In this document: one piece after another, positions 42,127 to 47,231 of the stretch
Numbering within the stretch: position 1 is the stretch's first letter
Layout of the letters: every line of letters begins with the position of its first letter
Assembly: GCA_023397215.1 (NCBI GenBank)
Contig: JAEWUG010000032.1
Span: 1,514 to 65,513, forward strand
Source: Nanobdellota archaeon
GTDB lineage: Archaea; Nanobdellota; Nanobdellia; Pacearchaeales; GW2011-AR1
DNA: 64,000 bases
Direction: 5' to 3'
Translations under genes and position numbers: made by a program
The notes under the pieces: generated by a model
What the model was told of the DNA's origin: nothing
Seen by the model: only the letters and a program-made list of their open reading frames with translations
Database searches by the model: none

Positions 42127-42243
42127 ATTAATCTATTCAAATTAAGGTTTTTAAGTCTTATGATTATTTAATTATTAAAAATTTTATAAATAATTAAAAA
42201 TAGCAAACTTTAAAAATTAAATAAAACTTCGTGTTATTATATT

Positions 42244-42258
42244 GCTCTCGTAGTCTAG
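42244..42258 (+). repeat. 15-nt direct duplicate of the 5' end of tRNA-Glu (GCTCTCGTAGTCTAG), 43 nt upstream of the tRNA
   Basis: Exact copy of tRNA positions 1-15; candidate att-site remnant of integrase-mediated recombination. Confidence 0.5.
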
Positions 42259-42301
42259 AGTAACATTAAAATGTTTCACAAAAGACAACGAGTGTAAGAA
42301 T

Positions 42302-42374
42302 GCTCTCGTAGTCTAGTGGCCAAGGATGCTGCCCTTTCACGGCAGTGACCCGGGTTCAAATCCCGGCGGGAGCA
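42302..42374 (+). tRNA. tRNA-Glu (anticodon UUC)
   Basis: Acceptor GCTCTCG/CGGGAGC, anticodon stem CTGCC/GGCAG with loop CTTTCAC (U33, UUC, A37), T-arm CCGGG-TTCAAAT-CCCGG, discriminator A; no CCA is encoded. Confidence 0.85.
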
Positions 42375-42589
42375 TATAGCATTCTGAGCATTTCTTGGAA
42401 CAAAAAATTTATTTTTATCGACGCTGAACATAAAAATATATCAAAAAGACACTACGATAAAATAACATAGAAAATGTTGTACAAAATTAGACAACTTTTG
42501 ATTTTTGATTATATTTATAATCGGATTATTTGTGTCACAAGTAGGTGGTCGACAAGATATATATATGTCCATCCAGCACACAACACACG

Positions 42590-43765
42590 ATGGCGAAACT
42601 AGATCCATATAATACAAAAGAATCATTTATGAAATGGAAAAATAAAGTTCATGAATTAGGGAAAATTCCGGACTTATCTCAAGAAAATTCTGAGCTTGTT
42701 TTAAGGTATTTAAGTGATATGGAATTAGGGATAAATACCTCATTAAATAGTAAAAAGGGTTCTAGAAGTTACATTAGACTAAATGCTGTTAGAATTAGAT
42801 TGATATTTTTATTAAAGAAATTTCAAGGATATTACAATTTAGATAATATAATTACTATCACAGAAACTCAATTATGTTCATTCTTTGTAGATATGCGTAA
42901 CGGCGTAATAAGACGACTTGACGGGCGTGAATATCGGGCAATAAGGGACTTTGTTAAAATATTTAAGGCATTCTGGCACTGGTGGATGCTTGTATCAAGA
43001 AAGGTAGGAAAAGATGTTCCAGATATAACTCTTTATATAGATTCTTCAGGAGAGAAACCAAGATGGGTTTACTTAAATGAGGAACAAATCAAAAAATTAT
43101 GTGATAATCTTACATTCAAATATAGAGTTCTTGCAATGTTTTTATTTGATACTGGAATTAGAGCTCCAACTGAATTAATGAATATAAAAAAATCGGATTT
43201 TTCGCAAGATTATAAAGAATTAAACATAAGGGATGAAATAAGCAAAACTTTTGGTAGAAGAATAAAATTAATGCTATCTTCAGATTTAATTAAGCGGTAT
43301 ATTGAAGATTTTCAAATAAAGGATGACGATTATTTATTTACGACTTTGCCTTGTAATGTAAATCGTTACTTGAAGAATAATGCTAGAAAAATATTAGGAG
43401 AAGGATTGAGTCTAGCTGGTCAAAGATATTCCGAGCTTACAATGTATGATTTTAGGCATTGTTCATGTTGTTATTGGTTACCTAGATATAAATCTGAGTC
43501 TGCATTAAAGTATAGATTTGGCTGGAAGAAATCTGACAAGATACACTATTACTCTGAATTATTAGGAATGAGAGATACAATAAGTGAAGATGATTTACTT
43601 ACTCCAGATGTAAAAACAGAAGTAGAAAAAGAACTTGTTGAAACAAAAAATGAAAATTCATTACTAAAAGAAGAATTAATAGCATTACAAGAACAAATGA
43701 AAGAGATATTTAGTCAAGTAACTAAATTATCAAATAATTCTTCAATATCCTTAATGTCTAAATAA
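42590..43765 (+). CDS. int: Tyrosine recombinase/integrase (intact; element integrated next to tRNA-Glu)
   Basis: LFDTGIRAPTELMNIKKSDF (box I Arg), YDFRHCSCCYWL (H-x-x-R) and GW...IHYYSEL (catalytic Tyr). Start moved to the internal Met (MAKLDPYN...) because a TATA-like ATATATATA sits 25-30 nt upstream at 42557-42566. The gene is noticeably GC-richer than its surroundings. Confidence 0.7.
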   Translation: MAKLDPYNTKESFMKWKNKVHELGKIPDLSQENSELVLRYLSDMELGINTSLNSKKGSRSYIRLNAVRIRLIFLLKKFQGYYNLDNIITITETQLCSFFVDMRNGVIRRLDGREYRAIRDFVKIFKAFWHWWMLVSRKVGKDVPDITLYIDSSGEKPRWVYLNEEQIKKLCDNLTFKYRVLAMFLFDTGIRAPTELMNIKKSDFSQDYKELNIRDEISKTFGRRIKLMLSSDLIKRYIEDFQIKDDDYLFTTLPCNVNRYLKNNARKILGEGLSLAGQRYSELTMYDFRHCSCCYWLPRYKSESALKYRFGWKKSDKIHYYSELLGMRDTISEDDLLTPDVKTEVEKELVETKNENSLLKEELIALQEQMKEIFSQVTKLSNNSSISLMSK

Positions 43766-45126
43766 ATTGCTTTCATTTCCTGCATTCTTTTAATAGCTTT
43801 TTCTGTAAATCCACTTTTTGATACAAAAATAAAATTATAACTTCCAGGATGATTAATATATTTCAATTTTTTTTCTAATTCTTCAATAACATCAATATTT
43901 AACGGTTTATTAGTCCATTTAACTTCTCCTACCAAAAAATTCTTTTCTTTTAAATTATATGCAAGAATATCTATTTCATTAGCTCTTCTGTCCCACCATG
44001 AGCCAATATTTTCGAAGTTTAATTTTAAACCTCTTAGCTCTTTTGTATTATAAAGAATAAGTAATTCTTTTACTATATTTTCAAAAATTCTCCCAACATA
44101 TCCATTCAAATCTTGTTTTATATATTCAGAAACTAGCTTAGTATTCCCTAAACTTAAGGCTGTTTGATTTGGAAGAATAAATTTGTACCAAAATTTAAAA
44201 AAATTATCTTTTATTTGATACCTCCCAAGTCTTTCTTTCCCTAATATTGGATCATTCCTTCCAACTAAATCAAGAAGGCTATCCAATTTGTTAAGATAGG
44301 CTGGCATCACTTGTGAATTTATATTTGTAATATCTTCTATCTCTTTCATTGTCTCTTTTCCAGAGGAAATAGCTCCTAAAATGGCATTATATTTTGCATG
44401 AACTCTAACATTCTCATATTCTAGTAAATTCTTAGGCTCTTCAAATAGTATAGCTCCTTTTTTTAATATTAAATCGAAGATTCTCTCATAAATATCTCCG
44501 TTACTTTTTTGAAATTTGTCTAAATAATCTGGAGTTCCACCAAAGACAGAATAAATAAGTATTTTTTCTTCTTCAGACATATTTTTAAACATTAATCTAA
44601 AATCTGAATATCTAAATGGGGAAATTTTTATTTTTTGTGCTCTTCCATAAAGAGCCCCATTCCTACTATCCAATATTTTTTGAATCATACCAATAGAAGA
44701 CCCCAAAAGAATAATCATAATTTTTTTATTCTTTAGTTTTGAATCCCATGCATTTTGTAGACTACTAATATATTCTGGAGCGATATTCGAGAATCTTTGA
44801 AATTCATCAATTGCTAAGACAAATTTTTCTTTATTTGCTTTTTCTCCAATATAGTCAAGAAATTCATAAAAGTCTTTAAAAATTATTTTATCTCCCAATT
44901 GCTCTTCAACCGCTTTAGATAAATAATTTAATATATCACTTTTTTGAGTAACTTCTACATAAAAATAAAATTGATTCTTTATTCCACTCAAAAATTGTTT
45001 AACTAACTCAGTTTTTCCAACTCTTCTTCTTCCATATAAGACTAACATATTAGAGGAGGATTCTGCATACTTTTCTCGTAAAAACTTCAATTCATTCTTT
45101 CTATCAAAAAATTCTTTTTCTGCCAT
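43714..45126 (-). CDS. Archaeal-type AAA ATPase (Arch_ATPase, PF01637-like) with C-terminal DUF234 (restriction-endonuclease-like) domain
   Basis: FFDRKNELKFL...LVLYGRRRVGKTELVKQFL Walker A region, Walker B LAIDEFQ, and a C-terminal ...EIDILAY...VGEVKW segment resembling PD-(D/E)xK. Its 3' end overlaps the integrase 3' end (convergent). Confidence 0.6.
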   Translation of the reverse strand: MAEKEFFDRKNELKFLREKYAESSSNMLVLYGRRRVGKTELVKQFLSGIKNQFYFYVEVTQKSDILNYLSKAVEEQLGDKIIFKDFYEFLDYIGEKANKEKFVLAIDEFQRFSNIAPEYISSLQNAWDSKLKNKKIMIILLGSSIGMIQKILDSRNGALYGRAQKIKISPFRYSDFRLMFKNMSEEEKILIYSVFGGTPDYLDKFQKSNGDIYERIFDLILKKGAILFEEPKNLLEYENVRVHAKYNAILGAISSGKETMKEIEDITNINSQVMPAYLNKLDSLLDLVGRNDPILGKERLGRYQIKDNFFKFWYKFILPNQTALSLGNTKLVSEYIKQDLNGYVGRIFENIVKELLILYNTKELRGLKLNFENIGSWWDRRANEIDILAYNLKEKNFLVGEVKWTNKPLNIDVIEELEKKLKYINHPGSYNFIFVSKSGFTEKAIKRMQEMKAIYLDIKDIEELFDNLVT

Positions 45127-45531: not shown

Positions 45532-46839
45532 TTAACAATGTTTATTCCTTGTTACAATTTTATTAAATAAACTATTCTTTGCATTTGTTTGAGAAGTTTT
45601 TGCATTTTTTGAATATAATAAAGCATATCCTTTATTTTTAGAATTATATAGAGAATGTTGATTATTTATTGAATTATTAACTGCATATTTATTATTTTTT
45701 GAGAAGAATAATGAATATTCACTATTTGTTGAATAACATAAAGAATAATCAGTATTTTGCGAAAAATCTAAAGAACATCCACTATTCTTAGAACGCATTA
45801 AAGATTTTCTATTATTTTTTGAACGAAATAATGTATGTTCTTTATTTTTTGAATCTTCTAATGAACGATCTGTATTCCTTGAATTAGATAAGGATTCTCC
45901 TGAATTATCTGAGTATTTCAATGATTTGCCTGAATTTAAAGAAGAACACAATGACTTGCCTGAATTCATTGAACCATATAAAGAATAATCAGTATTTATG
46001 GAATTAAATAATGATTCTTCTGAATTATTTGATTCTTCTAATGAATAATTAGAATTTATAGAATCACATAATGATTTTCCAGTATTTATTGATTTTTTTA
46101 GAGTAAAATTTCTATTTTCTGATGAAAGTAAAGAATCTTCTGTATTTACTGAATCCTCTAATGAATTTTCTGAATTATTTGAGTTATATAAAGAGTGTCC
46201 ACTATTATTAGATCTACAAAGAGAACAAGATGAATTATTAGAAGATAAAAATGATTTATCAGTATTTATGGAATTGTATAAAGAATATCCCCTATTTTTA
46301 GAACTACGAAAAGTAAAATTGCTATTTCTTGATTCTTCTAATGAATTTTCTACATTTGTTGAATTACTAAATGAATTTCCTTTATTATATGCTCTTTTAA
46401 ATGAATGTCCTTTATTTCGTGAACCAAAGAAAGAATTATCTGAATTTTGTGAACCAAAAAAAGAATTATCGTTATTCTCTGAAAATTTAAAAGATTCATC
46501 ATTATTCTCTGAAAATCTAAAAGAATTTCCATTATTCTTTGAAAACCACAATTGTCTTTGACTAAAAATTAATCCTTCTGTTGTACTATCAATTATAGCT
46601 CCAAGTCCTCCATATTTTAAACAATGAATATGAGAAATATCTTTTGTTATTAAAGCATAGGCAGATGCAGCTATACCTGAAAGATATTGATTTTCATGTA
46701 TAAAGAACCCACATAAATCTTTTGGTTTATCCTTATATGAATTTGCAATTATTCTTGTTAAATGTCTAACTCTATTTCCATTTTCATCTTGAACTGCTTG
46801 GTTTAGTAATTTTATTAATCGTTGAGTTTTTTCTTTCAT
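45532..46839 (-). CDS. Decapeptide tandem-repeat protein: about 110-aa N-terminal domain plus about 32 repeats of x-S-x-N-[ST]-x-x-S-[LF]-x
   Basis: Protein reads ...FSKNNGNSFR FSENNDESFK ... NSINTDYSLY GSMNSGKSLC SSLNSGKSLK ... with strict 10-residue periodicity. The DNA shows the matching 30-bp tandem periodicity across 45.6-46.55 kb. Confidence 0.55.
   Translation of the reverse strand: MKEKTQRLIKLLNQAVQDENGNRVRHLTRIIANSYKDKPKDLCGFFIHENQYLSGIAASAYALITKDISHIHCLKYGGLGAIIDSTTEGLIFSQRQLWFSKNNGNSFRFSENNDESFKFSENNDNSFFGSQNSDNSFFGSRNKGHSFKRAYNKGNSFSNSTNVENSLEESRNSNFTFRSSKNRGYSLYNSINTDKSFLSSNNSSCSLCRSNNSGHSLYNSNNSENSLEDSVNTEDSLLSSENRNFTLKKSINTGKSLCDSINSNYSLEESNNSEESLFNSINTDYSLYGSMNSGKSLCSSLNSGKSLKYSDNSGESLSNSRNTDRSLEDSKNKEHTLFRSKNNRKSLMRSKNSGCSLDFSQNTDYSLCYSTNSEYSLFFSKNNKYAVNNSINNQHSLYNSKNKGYALLYSKNAKTSQTNAKNSLFNKIVTRNKHC
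45640..46560. repeat. Approximately 30-bp imperfect tandem DNA repeat (coding; underlies the decapeptide-repeat protein)
   Basis: Units such as attattctctgaaaatttaaaagattcatc and attattctctgaaaatctaaaagaatttcc recur about 30 times; no unique spacers. Confidence 0.7.
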
Positions 46840-46946: not shown

Positions 46947-47231
46947 ATGAATTTTATTGGTAAATACAATATGAACGAAAAATATAATGTAGAAATAATT
47001 TATTCAAAAGAAAGTCAATCAAATTTAGAAAAAACTATTTCTGAATTAAAATTTATCTCAGGAATACAACCTGAAATTAAAATAATATTAGATGAAAATT
47101 TAGAAAAATATAGTCTTATGTACAATAGCTTAGCTTATTATAAAGCATATGACATTTTTAATTATATTATGAGAGATGTTTTAACAAAAAAGAATGAAGT
47201 TCATTTTTTTATTAATCCATCAAAAGAATAA
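46947..47231 (+). CDS. Hypothetical protein
   Basis: 94-aa ORF with no motif; inside the putative island. Confidence 0.3.
   Translation: MNFIGKYNMNEKYNVEIIYSKESQSNLEKTISELKFISGIQPEIKIILDENLEKYSLMYNSLAYYKAYDIFNYIMRDVLTKKNEVHFFINPSKE

What the first reader, a model, noticed from the sequence alone, without database searches (positions are those of the whole stretch)
45532..46839. Protein made of about 32 tandem decapeptides (x-S-x-N-S/T-x-x-S-L/F-x) after a roughly 110-aa N-terminal domain
A strict 10-residue periodicity runs for about 320 residues. Ser at positions 2 and 8, Asn at 4, and Leu/Phe at 9 are invariant; the other positions vary. The DNA shows the matching 30-bp periodicity. The pattern reads as two alternating pentads (S-x-N-T-x and x-S-L-x-x). 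That is reminiscent of, but not identical to, the pentapeptide-repeat (Rfr) quadrilateral beta-helix consensus A(D/N)LXX, with an Asn replacing the usual hydrophobic centre in every second pentad (a possible Asn ladder). Candidate roles: a beta-solenoid rod; a DNA-mimic such as Qnr/MfpA-type pentapeptide proteins, plausible as anti-restriction cargo on a mobile element; or an ice-binding/adhesin-like S/N/T-rich surface. There is no signal peptide, so it is probably cytoplasmic. The N-terminal domain (…DLCGFFIHENQYLSGIAASAYALITKDISHIHCLKYGGLG…) has a Cys…His pair but no family I can name.
Basis: seen in the sequence. Interest (0 to 1): 0.7.

Follow-up and report, generated by a model that had tools for sequence, protein, structure and literature searches.

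The report
Asn/Leu-cored pentapeptide-type beta-helix rod protein
This archaeal gene encodes a small helical head followed by a long rigid beta-helix rod, a divergent version of the known pentapeptide-repeat fold in which every second core leucine is replaced by asparagine; it belongs to an unannotated family whose function is still unknown.

Summary

It is not a canonical PRP. No Pfam pentapeptide model reaches significance, 0 of 66 pentads fit the published consensus, Asn occupies the centre position in every second pentad, and charged residues occur at i-2.

It belongs to an unannotated family (159 cluster representatives, about 96 with the same N-domain; 2-33 repeats; some fused to a kinase, sigma-70 region 4 or a GHKL ATPase).

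Against a Woesearchaeota ortholog, indels are whole units. dN/dS is 0.09 at core positions and 0.82 at surface positions.

The DNA-mimic and mobile-cargo ideas are not supported: the protein is basic, it sits at a conserved chromosomal position where the ortholog has no integrase, and it has no phage or plasmid relatives.

Most likely it is a capped rigid rod or scaffold carrying a conserved head. It is a new variant of a known fold.

The parts
45532..46839 (-). Complete gene (435 codons plus stop) for the head-plus-rod protein
   Evidence: ORF list. Ortholog at 60% identity in a Woesearchaeota MAG, with overall dN/dS 0.44. Family of 159 cluster representatives.
46615..46839 (-). Residues 1-75: conserved five-helix N-terminal head domain (motifs NGNRVRHL, ANSYKDKP, GIAASAY)
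   Evidence: AlphaFold helices at 2-17, 21-34, 39-45, 51-65 and 69-73, with pLDDT 94-99. An N-domain HMM finds 96 other proteins among those retrieved. dN/dS for residues 1-98 is 0.30. No Pfam, NCBIfam or PDB-sequence match.
46546..46614 (-). Residues 76-98: transition (YGGLGAIIDSTTEGLIFSQRQLW), the non-periodic first turns of the beta-helix packed against the head
   Evidence: Beta strands at 82-85 and 101-105 in the model. YGGLG and QLxF are among the most conserved family motifs. In most relatives the next unit is a canonical pentad pair, FAKLSGxAL.
45586..46545 (-). Residues 99-418: 32 well-formed decapeptides x-S-x-N-(S/T/N)-(G/D/E)-x-S-(L/F)-x. This is 64 pentapeptides, or 16 coils of a quadrilateral beta-helix, about 77 A long at 4.8 A per coil.
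   Evidence: periodicity. (fold; only residues 99-258 were modelled). (core positions dN/dS 0.09). The 4.8 A rise per coil is general knowledge of beta-helices, not measured here.
45535..45585 (-). Residues 419-435: degenerate last unit plus C-terminal tail (NAKNSLFNKIVTRNKHC), a putative C-terminal cap
   Evidence: The motif S-L-F-N-x-I-(F/V) lies within 25 residues of the C-terminus in 7 of 98 proteins, counting this one and its L003 ortholog. This region was not modelled, so the cap function is inferred.

Best explanation
The gene encodes a soluble cytoplasmic protein with two parts. The first is a conserved five-helix head of about 75 residues. The second is a long right-handed quadrilateral beta-helix of the pentapeptide-repeat (Rfr) type.

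Each 10-residue unit is two non-equivalent pentapeptides. Pentad A is x-(S/A)-(L/F)-x-x and pentad B is S-x-N-(S/T)-(G/D/E). Two units make one 20-residue coil. Opposite faces therefore alternate between a Leu/Phe centre and an Asn centre, which gives a core of two hydrophobic stacks and two Asn ladders. About 16.5 coils give a rigid rod of roughly 80 A. The head caps the N-terminal end and a short tail caps the C-terminal end.

Selection maintains the core and the head, while the rod surface is nearly free to change. The most likely working model is a rigid spacer or scaffold whose conserved head makes the specific contact with a partner. The rod would set distance or geometry, or offer a fast-evolving secondary binding surface. 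In relatives the same head-plus-rod module is attached to a Ser/Thr kinase, a sigma-70 region-4 DNA-binding domain or a GHKL ATPase.

Shown: the periodicity, the family, the selection pattern and the predicted fold with its closest structural relatives. Inferred: the inward orientation of Asn4, the monomeric state and the scaffold function.
For: Periodicity and conservation.

Fold:
- The AlphaFold model of residues 1-258, built from a 49-row family alignment, has mean pLDDT 95.8 and pTM 0.90. All five models score 92.8-95.8.

Register:
- phmmer and profile alignments to PRPs place S/A8-L9 on (D/N)-L, and N4 on the centre L/F of the next pentad.
- The top eight PDB-sequence hits of the family profile are all PRPs (best E 1.2e-3).
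- The repeat region of P0005 hits the PipB2 PRP-effector model at E 4.7e-4.

Buried nature of position 4: over 718 family units it is N 58%, I 10%, L 7%, F 3%, V 3%. The first unit of most relatives is a canonical A-K-L-S-G pentad.

Selection against the L003 ortholog: indels of exactly 10, 10 and 20 residues; dN/dS 0.09 at positions 2, 4, 8 and 9, 0.82 at the other repeat positions, and 0.30 in the head.

Family and fusions: 159 representatives, about 96 with the head domain. Fusions to Pkinase, Sigma70_r4 and HATPase_c_3.

No TM segment or signal peptide.
Against: - The structure is a prediction, and only for residues 1-258. I could not inspect coordinates, so the Asn ladder and the fate of the non-small, sometimes charged, i-2 residue of pentad A are inferred from alignment register, not seen.
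- Sequence-level homology to PRPs is marginal (Pfam best E 0.054 in 2 of 49 members; hhalign probability 1.3% against a HetL fragment). Convergence on the fold cannot be excluded.
- AlphaFold has seen many PRPs and may favour that fold for any 5n-periodic sequence.
- Nothing tested here shows a binding partner. No conserved neighbouring gene was found. The scaffold function is a default reading from PRP biology (PMC8145042) and from the domain fusions.
Confidence: 0.6

Rival explanations
1. DNA mimic of the MfpA/Qnr/AlbG type. The beta-helix rod imitates B-DNA and binds a topoisomerase or a restriction/modification enzyme, possibly as anti-restriction cargo of the adjacent integrase island.
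For: The closest structural neighbours include MfpA, Qnr, AlbG and EfsQnr. A tRNA-Glu, an integrase (phrog_1, E 5.7e-18) and a candidate defence ATPase (PADLOC PDC-S27, E 1e-39) lie directly next to the gene.
Against: - The rod is net +10 and the protein has pI 9.2; the family median pI is 8.9. DNA mimicry by MfpA/Qnr depends on a DNA-like electrostatic surface and a head-to-head dimer through a C-terminal helix (PMC8145042).
- No Qnr/MfpA model matches.
- The ortholog in L003 keeps the Kae1 / signal-peptidase neighbourhood but lacks the integrase and the ATPase.
- No att repeat.
- No phage, plasmid or viral-contig relatives.
- The rod surface evolves almost neutrally (dN/dS 0.82), which fits poorly with a surface that must keep mimicking DNA.
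Confidence: 0.06
2. Oligomeric fibre or filament. The decapeptide tract forms a trimeric fibre (triple beta-helix or three bundled rods), or monomers stack end to end into filaments, as in tail-fibre shafts.
For: - The same STNSGxALxY decapeptide occurs in P0042 and P0050. These have unrelated N- and C-terminal regions, with sequence features that read to me like phage tail fibres (inference only).
- AlphaFold was run as a monomer only.
Against: - The monomer model is very confident and closes its own core.
- The conserved N-terminal head, and in a subfamily a C-terminal tail, look like end caps. In soluble solenoids such caps usually prevent end-to-end stacking (general knowledge).
- P0042 and P0050 have no Pfam or NCBIfam support for a fibre identity.
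- No viral relatives of this protein.
Confidence: 0.1
3. Nucleic-acid-binding rod. The basic beta-helix, or the Arg-rich NGNRxR motif of the head, binds RNA or DNA directly.
For: Net positive charge. Conserved NGNRxRxL motif. Some relatives are fused to a sigma-70 region-4 helix-turn-helix.
Against: - The charge is modest (+10 over 337 residues) and not conserved: family members range from pI 4.9 to 9.9.
- No known nucleic-acid-binding domain was detected.
- Surface positions are not conserved.
Confidence: 0.1
4. Ice-binding, adhesin-like, or merely low-complexity. The S/N/T-rich tract is either an exposed ice- or surface-binding array, or a disordered linker with no defined fold.
For: The composition is S 23% and N 19% in the repeat region. 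Single-sequence AlphaFold gave pLDDT 34.5.
Against: - With an alignment the fold is confident.
- The phase is perfectly kept over 330 residues, and indels between orthologs are whole units.
- Core positions are under strong purifying selection.
- No signal peptide, TM segment or anchor.
- In the wider family position 8 is more often Ala than Ser, so a Ser/Thr ice-binding array is not the conserved feature.
Confidence: 0.04

Closest known systems
Pentapeptide repeat proteins (Rfr fold; Pfam PF00805 clan), e.g. MfpA (2bm4), AhQnr (3pss), AlbG (2xt2), EfsQnr (2w7z), C. botulinum PENT (6fls), Rfr32 (2g0y), HetL (3du1), designed beta1 (4yfo)
   Same: - Leu/Phe at centre position i of one pentad type.
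- Small Ser at i-2 and S-G/T-D at i+1/i+2 of the other pentad type.
- Weak, in-register sequence hits.
- Helical capping of the helix end, as in PENT, Rfr23 and AlbG (PMC8145042).
   Different: - The true period is 10, not 5.
- Asn occupies the centre position i in every second pentad (33/33). Solved PRPs have L/F or another strongly hydrophobic residue there (PMC7337050).
[quoted passage not shown]
- i-1 is Ser/Ala rather than Asp/Asn.
- 0 of 66 pentads fit the published consensus.
- No Pfam pentapeptide model reaches significance.
- A unique five-helix N-terminal domain.
- 16.5 coils in one chain, about twice the 8 coils reported for PENT (PMC8145042).
Asn-ladder beta-solenoids (pectate lyase-type right-handed parallel beta-helix; leucine-rich repeats)
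PRP domains used as modules in multidomain proteins (SopA/NleL E3 ligases, PipB2 effector)
   Different: No sequence family membership. The partner domains differ. The window protein is a stand-alone head plus rod.

Membership tests
Pentapeptide repeat protein superfamily (PF00805 and relatives) | At least eight contiguous pentapeptides fitting the consensus (A/C/S/V/T/L/I)(D/N/S/K/E/I/R)(L/F)(S/T/R/E/Q/K/V/D)(G/D/E/N/R/Q/K) (PMC8145042) | tested here: not met
   0 of 66 pentads fit all five positions. Pentad B has Asn at i in 33/33. Pentad A fits i-2 in only 9%.
Pentapeptide repeat protein superfamily (PF00805 and relatives) | Right-handed quadrilateral beta-helix, four pentapeptides per coil | tested here: met
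   [not shown]
Pentapeptide repeat protein superfamily (PF00805 and relatives) | Significant match to a Pfam pentapeptide HMM (Pentapeptide, _3, _4) | tested here: not met
   No hit for the window protein at E <= 10. Only 2 of 49 family members touch Pentapeptide_4, best E 0.054.
Pentapeptide repeat protein superfamily (PF00805 and relatives) | Detectable sequence homology to solved PRPs | tested here: inconclusive
   The family profile's top eight PDB-sequence hits are all PRPs and are in register, but E ranges from 1.2e-3 to 0.18. hhalign against a HetL fragment gives probability 1.3%.
Pentapeptide repeat protein superfamily (PF00805 and relatives) | Hydrophobic (L/F/I/M/W/V/A/C) side chain at i on every face, and uncharged i-2 (PMC7337050) | tested here: not met
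   Asn at i on two of the four faces. K/R/D/E at i-2 of pentad A in 10 of 33 units.
Qnr/MfpA/AlbG-type DNA-mimic PRPs | DNA-like (negative) electrostatic surface | tested here: not met
   Net charge +10 in the rod and pI 9.2; family median pI 8.9. This comes from sequence only; no surface map was computed.
Qnr/MfpA/AlbG-type DNA-mimic PRPs | Head-to-head dimer through a C-terminal alpha-helix (PMC8145042) | tested here: inconclusive
   The C-terminus (residues 419-435) was not in the confident model. The tail is only about 14 residues. No multimer prediction was possible.
Qnr/MfpA/AlbG-type DNA-mimic PRPs | Match to the curated Qnr/MfpA/McbG family models | tested here: not met
   NCBIfam gives 0 families at E <= 10. 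Pfam gives none.
Cargo of an integrated mobile element | Lies between att repeats with the integrase and is absent from the empty site in relatives | tested here: not met
   No second copy of the tRNA-Glu 3' end in the window. The ortholog is present in L003 in the same neighbourhood, while the integrase and ATPase are absent. Homolog contexts are housekeeping genes.
Ice-binding / antifreeze beta-solenoids | Secreted or surface-exposed, with a flat face carrying a conserved regular Thr/Ser/Asn array | tested here: inconclusive
   No signal peptide or TM segment. Outward-facing positions are poorly conserved (dN/dS 0.82), and position 8 is Ala in 48% of family units. Activity cannot be tested here.

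The most novel reading that the evidence does not exclude
This is the founding example of a distinct structural subclass of the quadrilateral beta-helix: a 'decapeptide-repeat' helix with a half-polar core made of two Leu/Phe stacks and two buried Asn ladders. It is coupled to a previously undescribed five-helix head domain. The head-plus-rod cassette would be a portable recognition or ruler module that uncultivated archaea and other lineages plug onto kinases, sigma-like DNA-binding domains and GHKL-ATPase/HExxH proteins. The near-neutral or diversifying rod surface might then reflect an arms-race or specificity-switching role, not a passive spacer.
Probability: 0.25. Interest if true: 0.65.

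Novelty: new variant of a known kind. Interest (0 to 1): 0.45.

Why it matters
It shows that the pentapeptide-repeat fold tolerates, and a whole family maintains, a core in which half the hydrophobic centre residues are replaced by asparagine. It also tolerates charged residues at a position where none has been seen in solved structures. That is useful for understanding and designing beta-solenoids.

It also defines an unannotated protein family, a new head domain plus a divergent rod, which current Pfam, NCBIfam, PHROG and PADLOC models miss completely and which word-indexed searches barely detect. About a hundred 50%-identity clusters of 'hypothetical proteins' in DPANN-type archaea and other uncultivated organisms can therefore now be given a fold.

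It does not by itself answer any long-standing biological question, because the function remains unknown.

Tried and rejected
- Single-sequence AlphaFold failed (pLDDT 34.5). It says nothing about disorder, because the alignment-based run was confident.
- afdb50 was unavailable.
- The word-indexed homology search found only 2, 7 and 2 proteins, because repeat words swamp the candidate list or the family is too sparse. The exhaustive HMMER scan was needed.
- Low-ranking hits of that scan (P0044, P0053, P0061, P0069, P0079 and others) are unrelated eukaryotic decapeptide low-complexity tracts.
- The N-domain profile against PDB sequences found nothing (best E 0.11, Vps4 MIT domain).
- There is no conserved neighbouring gene across 14 loci. 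The small divergent ORFs upstream are homologous only between the window and L003.
- PADLOC and PHROGs gave no hit for the protein.
- The Ser-codon-switch test was uninformative. Ser2 and Ser8 use only TCN codons, although the third base varies; only Ser5 mixes TCN and AGY.
- I first noted a 'second copy' in L001. It was L002's own gene, read from a shared file, and I withdrew it.
- The tail-fibre reading of P0042/P0050 has no database support.
- The first two related-loci runs, with the 43-sequence alignment, failed because no stretch was conserved enough.

Full report
**1. The observation**

The minus-strand ORF 45532..46839 encodes 435 residues.
- From residue 99 the sequence falls into 33 consecutive decapeptides in a single phase, with no indel.
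- Asn at position 4 is invariant (33/33). Ser2 is 31/33, Ser/Thr8 is 30/33 and Leu/Phe9 is 30/33.
- Identity at lag 10 is 0.425, against 0.115 +/- 0.017 in shuffles (z 18.7). The first 100 residues are aperiodic.
- The DNA has the matching 30-nt period.
- Units are old and diverged. Mean pairwise DNA identity is 0.58, independent of distance, except for the first three units at 0.8. There is no 20-residue super-period in sequence.
- The protein has no hydrophobic segment.

The finding is therefore real. There are 33 units after a roughly 98-residue non-repetitive part.

**2. Host and genomic setting**

The window is 22-30% G+C. It encodes archaeal housekeeping genes around the locus: Rpb7/RpoE, S24e, ScpA, a Toprim (DnaG-like) protein and Kae1.

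The closest genome hit is a Candidatus Woesearchaeota MAG (L003), so the host is a DPANN-type archaeon.

On one side of the gene lie three features:
- A tRNA-Glu (42301-42375).
- A tyrosine-integrase-like gene (42545-43765; PHROG integrase E 5.7e-18).
- An ATPase_2/DUF234 protein (43714-45126) that matches the PADLOC candidate defence family PDC-S27 (E 1e-39).

This looks like a small integrated island, but the repeat gene is not part of it:
- The 3' end of the tRNA has no second copy in the window.
- In L003 the ortholog sits in the same Kae1 / signal peptidase / small-ORF neighbourhood, while the integrase and ATPase are absent.
- Two other homologs lie among housekeeping genes.
- No relative exists in the phage, plasmid or viral-contig collections.

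**3. The family**

No Pfam, NCBIfam, PHROG or PADLOC model matches the protein. The word-indexed search found only two relatives.

An exhaustive HMMER scan of 1.84 billion cluster representatives, using a three-sequence profile, found 159 proteins at E <= 1e-3 and 35 at E <= 1e-30. About 96 of them carry the same N-terminal domain. Its motifs are NGNRxRxL, AxAYxxNPExLxxYF, GIATSAYxxLTGDIxPIQ, EYGGLG and QLxFAKLSG. That domain is followed by 2 to 33 decapeptides with consensus x-S-x-N-S-G-x-(A/S)-L-x.

Over 718 family units the position frequencies are (positions 8 and 9 were restricted by the parsing filter to small and hydrophobic residues respectively):
- Position 2: S 67%, A 21%.
- Position 4: N 58%, otherwise mostly I, L, F or V.
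- Position 6: G, D or E.
- Position 8: A 48%, S 37%.
- Position 9: L 71%, F 16%.

Some members carry the module fused to other domains. These are a protein kinase (P0005), sigma-70 region 4 (P0036, P0037) and a GHKL ATPase (P0018). P0018 and the similar P0003 and P0006 also carry an HExxH motif before the module, by my reading of the sequences. Low-ranking hits are unrelated eukaryotic low-complexity tracts.

**4. The fold**

Single-sequence AlphaFold failed (pLDDT 34.5).

A second job used a 49-row family alignment, which also included the second half of this protein's own array. It modelled residues 1-258 with mean pLDDT 95.8 and pTM 0.90, and all five models scored at least 92.8. The model has five helices (2-17, 21-34, 39-45, 51-65, 69-73). 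These are followed by a regular structure with a short beta-bridge every ten residues.

Foldseek found nothing significant in the PDB, although its weak list was enriched in pentapeptide-repeat proteins and other solenoids.

[quoted passage not shown] One coil is 20 residues, or two decapeptides.

**5. Register and the core**

Sequence alignments to PRPs are individually weak, but they are all in the same register:
- phmmer to 4yfo, E 0.27.
- Family profile to HetL (E 1.2e-3), Np275/276 (6.3e-3), AlbG, MfpA, Rfr32 and PENT. These make up all eight top hits.

In these alignments (S/A)8-L9 falls on (D/N)-L. N4 falls on the centre L/F of the next pentad, and S2 falls on i-2.

So pentad A is x7-(S/A)8-(L/F)9-x10-x1, and pentad B is S2-x3-N4-(S/T)5-(G/D/E)6. 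Three observations fit a buried position 4. Asn alternates with I, L, V or F at that position across the family. Most relatives begin the array with a canonical A-K-L-S-G pentad. Constraint at positions 2, 4, 8 and 9 is very strong (section 6). I could not inspect coordinates, so the Asn ladder is an inference.

**6. Selection**

Against the L003 ortholog (60% identity), alignment gaps are exactly 10, 10 and 20 residues, and both proteins end up with 33 units.

Nei-Gojobori dN/dS values are:
- 0.09 at positions 2, 4, 8 and 9.
- 0.82 at the other repeat positions.
- 0.30 in the head (residues 1-98).

This refutes the idea of a sloppy low-complexity linker. It shows that the scaffold and the head are what selection keeps, while the rod surface is nearly free.

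**7. Comparison with what is known**

The protein works like, and is predicted to be shaped like, a pentapeptide-repeat protein, but it fails the sequence definition of that family:
- None of its 66 pentads fits the published five-position consensus (consensus from PMC8145042).
- Asn occupies position i in half of them. In solved PRPs that position is L/F or another strongly hydrophobic residue.
- Charged residues occur at i-2 of pentad A in 10 of 33 units, although none has been observed there in solved PRPs (PMC7337050).
- Pfam pentapeptide models miss the whole family, and profile-profile comparison with a HetL fragment is insignificant.

I therefore file it as a new variant of a known fold, not as a member of PF00805. 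Whether it diverged from PRPs or converged on the fold cannot be decided here.

I found no paper holding both 'pentapeptide repeat' and 'asparagine ladder'. None of the ten top-listed DPANN/Woesearchaeota papers mentions pentapeptide repeats.

**8. Function**

The DNA-mimic model requires a DNA-like negative surface and a C-terminal-helix dimer (PMC8145042). This protein is basic (pI 9.2, rod net +10), and the family median pI is 8.9 with a wide spread. The rod surface is also not conserved. I consider that model unlikely, at about 0.06.

No conserved gene neighbour exists.

The best-supported reading rests on three points: the conserved head, the capped and strongly maintained but surface-variable rod, and the fusions to signalling and DNA-binding domains. 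Together they point to a rigid scaffold or spacer of about 80 A, whose head makes the specific contact. This functional step is an inference.

Oligomeric fibre and nucleic-acid-binding alternatives remain open at about 0.1 each.

**9. Verdict**

The functional suggestions (DNA mimic, mobile cargo, Cys-His site) are not.

This is a new variant of a known kind and the representative of an unannotated family. Interest is moderate: structurally instructive, with biological meaning still unknown.

Noticed in passing
window 42243-45126: A small island-like segment next to the gene. It holds tRNA-Glu (42301-42375), a tyrosine-integrase-like gene (42545-43765, PHROG integrase E 5.7e-18) and an ATPase_2/DUF234 gene (43714-45126) that matches the PADLOC candidate defence family PDC-S27 (E 1e-39). 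Integrase and ATPase are absent from the corresponding place in the related MAG (L003). No att copy of the tRNA 3' end was found. However, the first 16 nt of the tRNA (TGCTCTCGTAGTCTAG) are duplicated 58 nt upstream, at 42243-42258.
   Followed up: partly
window 43714-43765: The integrase-like ORF (+ strand) and the ATPase ORF (- strand) are convergent, and their 3' ends overlap by 52 nt as called by the mechanical ORF list.
   Followed up: no
window 46414-46545 (repeat units 1-4) and L003 8001-9293: The first units of the array are much more alike at DNA level (80%, TRF 84-92%) than the rest (about 58%). The L003 ortholog has extra near-identical units (FLGSKNSDNS, three copies) at the same end. 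Unit gain and loss seems to be active at the head-proximal end, while the total stays at 33 units in both genomes.
   Followed up: partly
window 46268-46561 (+) and 46350-46532 (-): The 97-aa antisense and 60-aa out-of-frame same-strand ORFs inside the repeat region are by-products of the 30-nt periodicity in AT-rich DNA. They are not separate genes.
   Followed up: no
L003 7273-7947 (+): Directly upstream of the ortholog, on the same strand, lies a 224-aa ORF with an HExxH motif (VHEYTHSY) and no Pfam match. Three family members (P0003, P0006, P0018) have the head-plus-rod module fused after a GHKL-ATPase region that also carries an HExxH motif. This could be a functional link to a metallopeptidase-like domain. 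The window has no such ORF.
   Followed up: partly
proteins P0042 and P0050: The same decapeptide (STNSGxALxY, 10-20 copies) occurs in proteins with entirely different N- and C-terminal regions and no head domain. These regions read like fibre or receptor-binding proteins. Pfam and NCBIfam give nothing.
   Followed up: partly
window 46947-47231 (+) and L003 7068-7328: A 94-aa ORF next to the gene is conserved in the related MAG (28% identity, E 2e-10), but in inverted orientation relative to the repeat gene. It has no family match.
   Followed up: partly
proteins P0004, P0036, P0037, P0058: The members fused to sigma-70 region 4 share a further conserved C-terminal tail (...YSTDxR...SNLVSWFxxGFTSRxxWAxRNG...) of unknown nature.
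   Followed up: no
model m2bd765412d64, residues 201-210: This is the only dip in model confidence (block mean pLDDT 75, with a three-residue helix at 206-208). It falls in unit 11 (SSNNSSCSLC), where position 6 is Ser instead of G/D/E/N. It may be a local kink or bulge in the rod.
   Followed up: no
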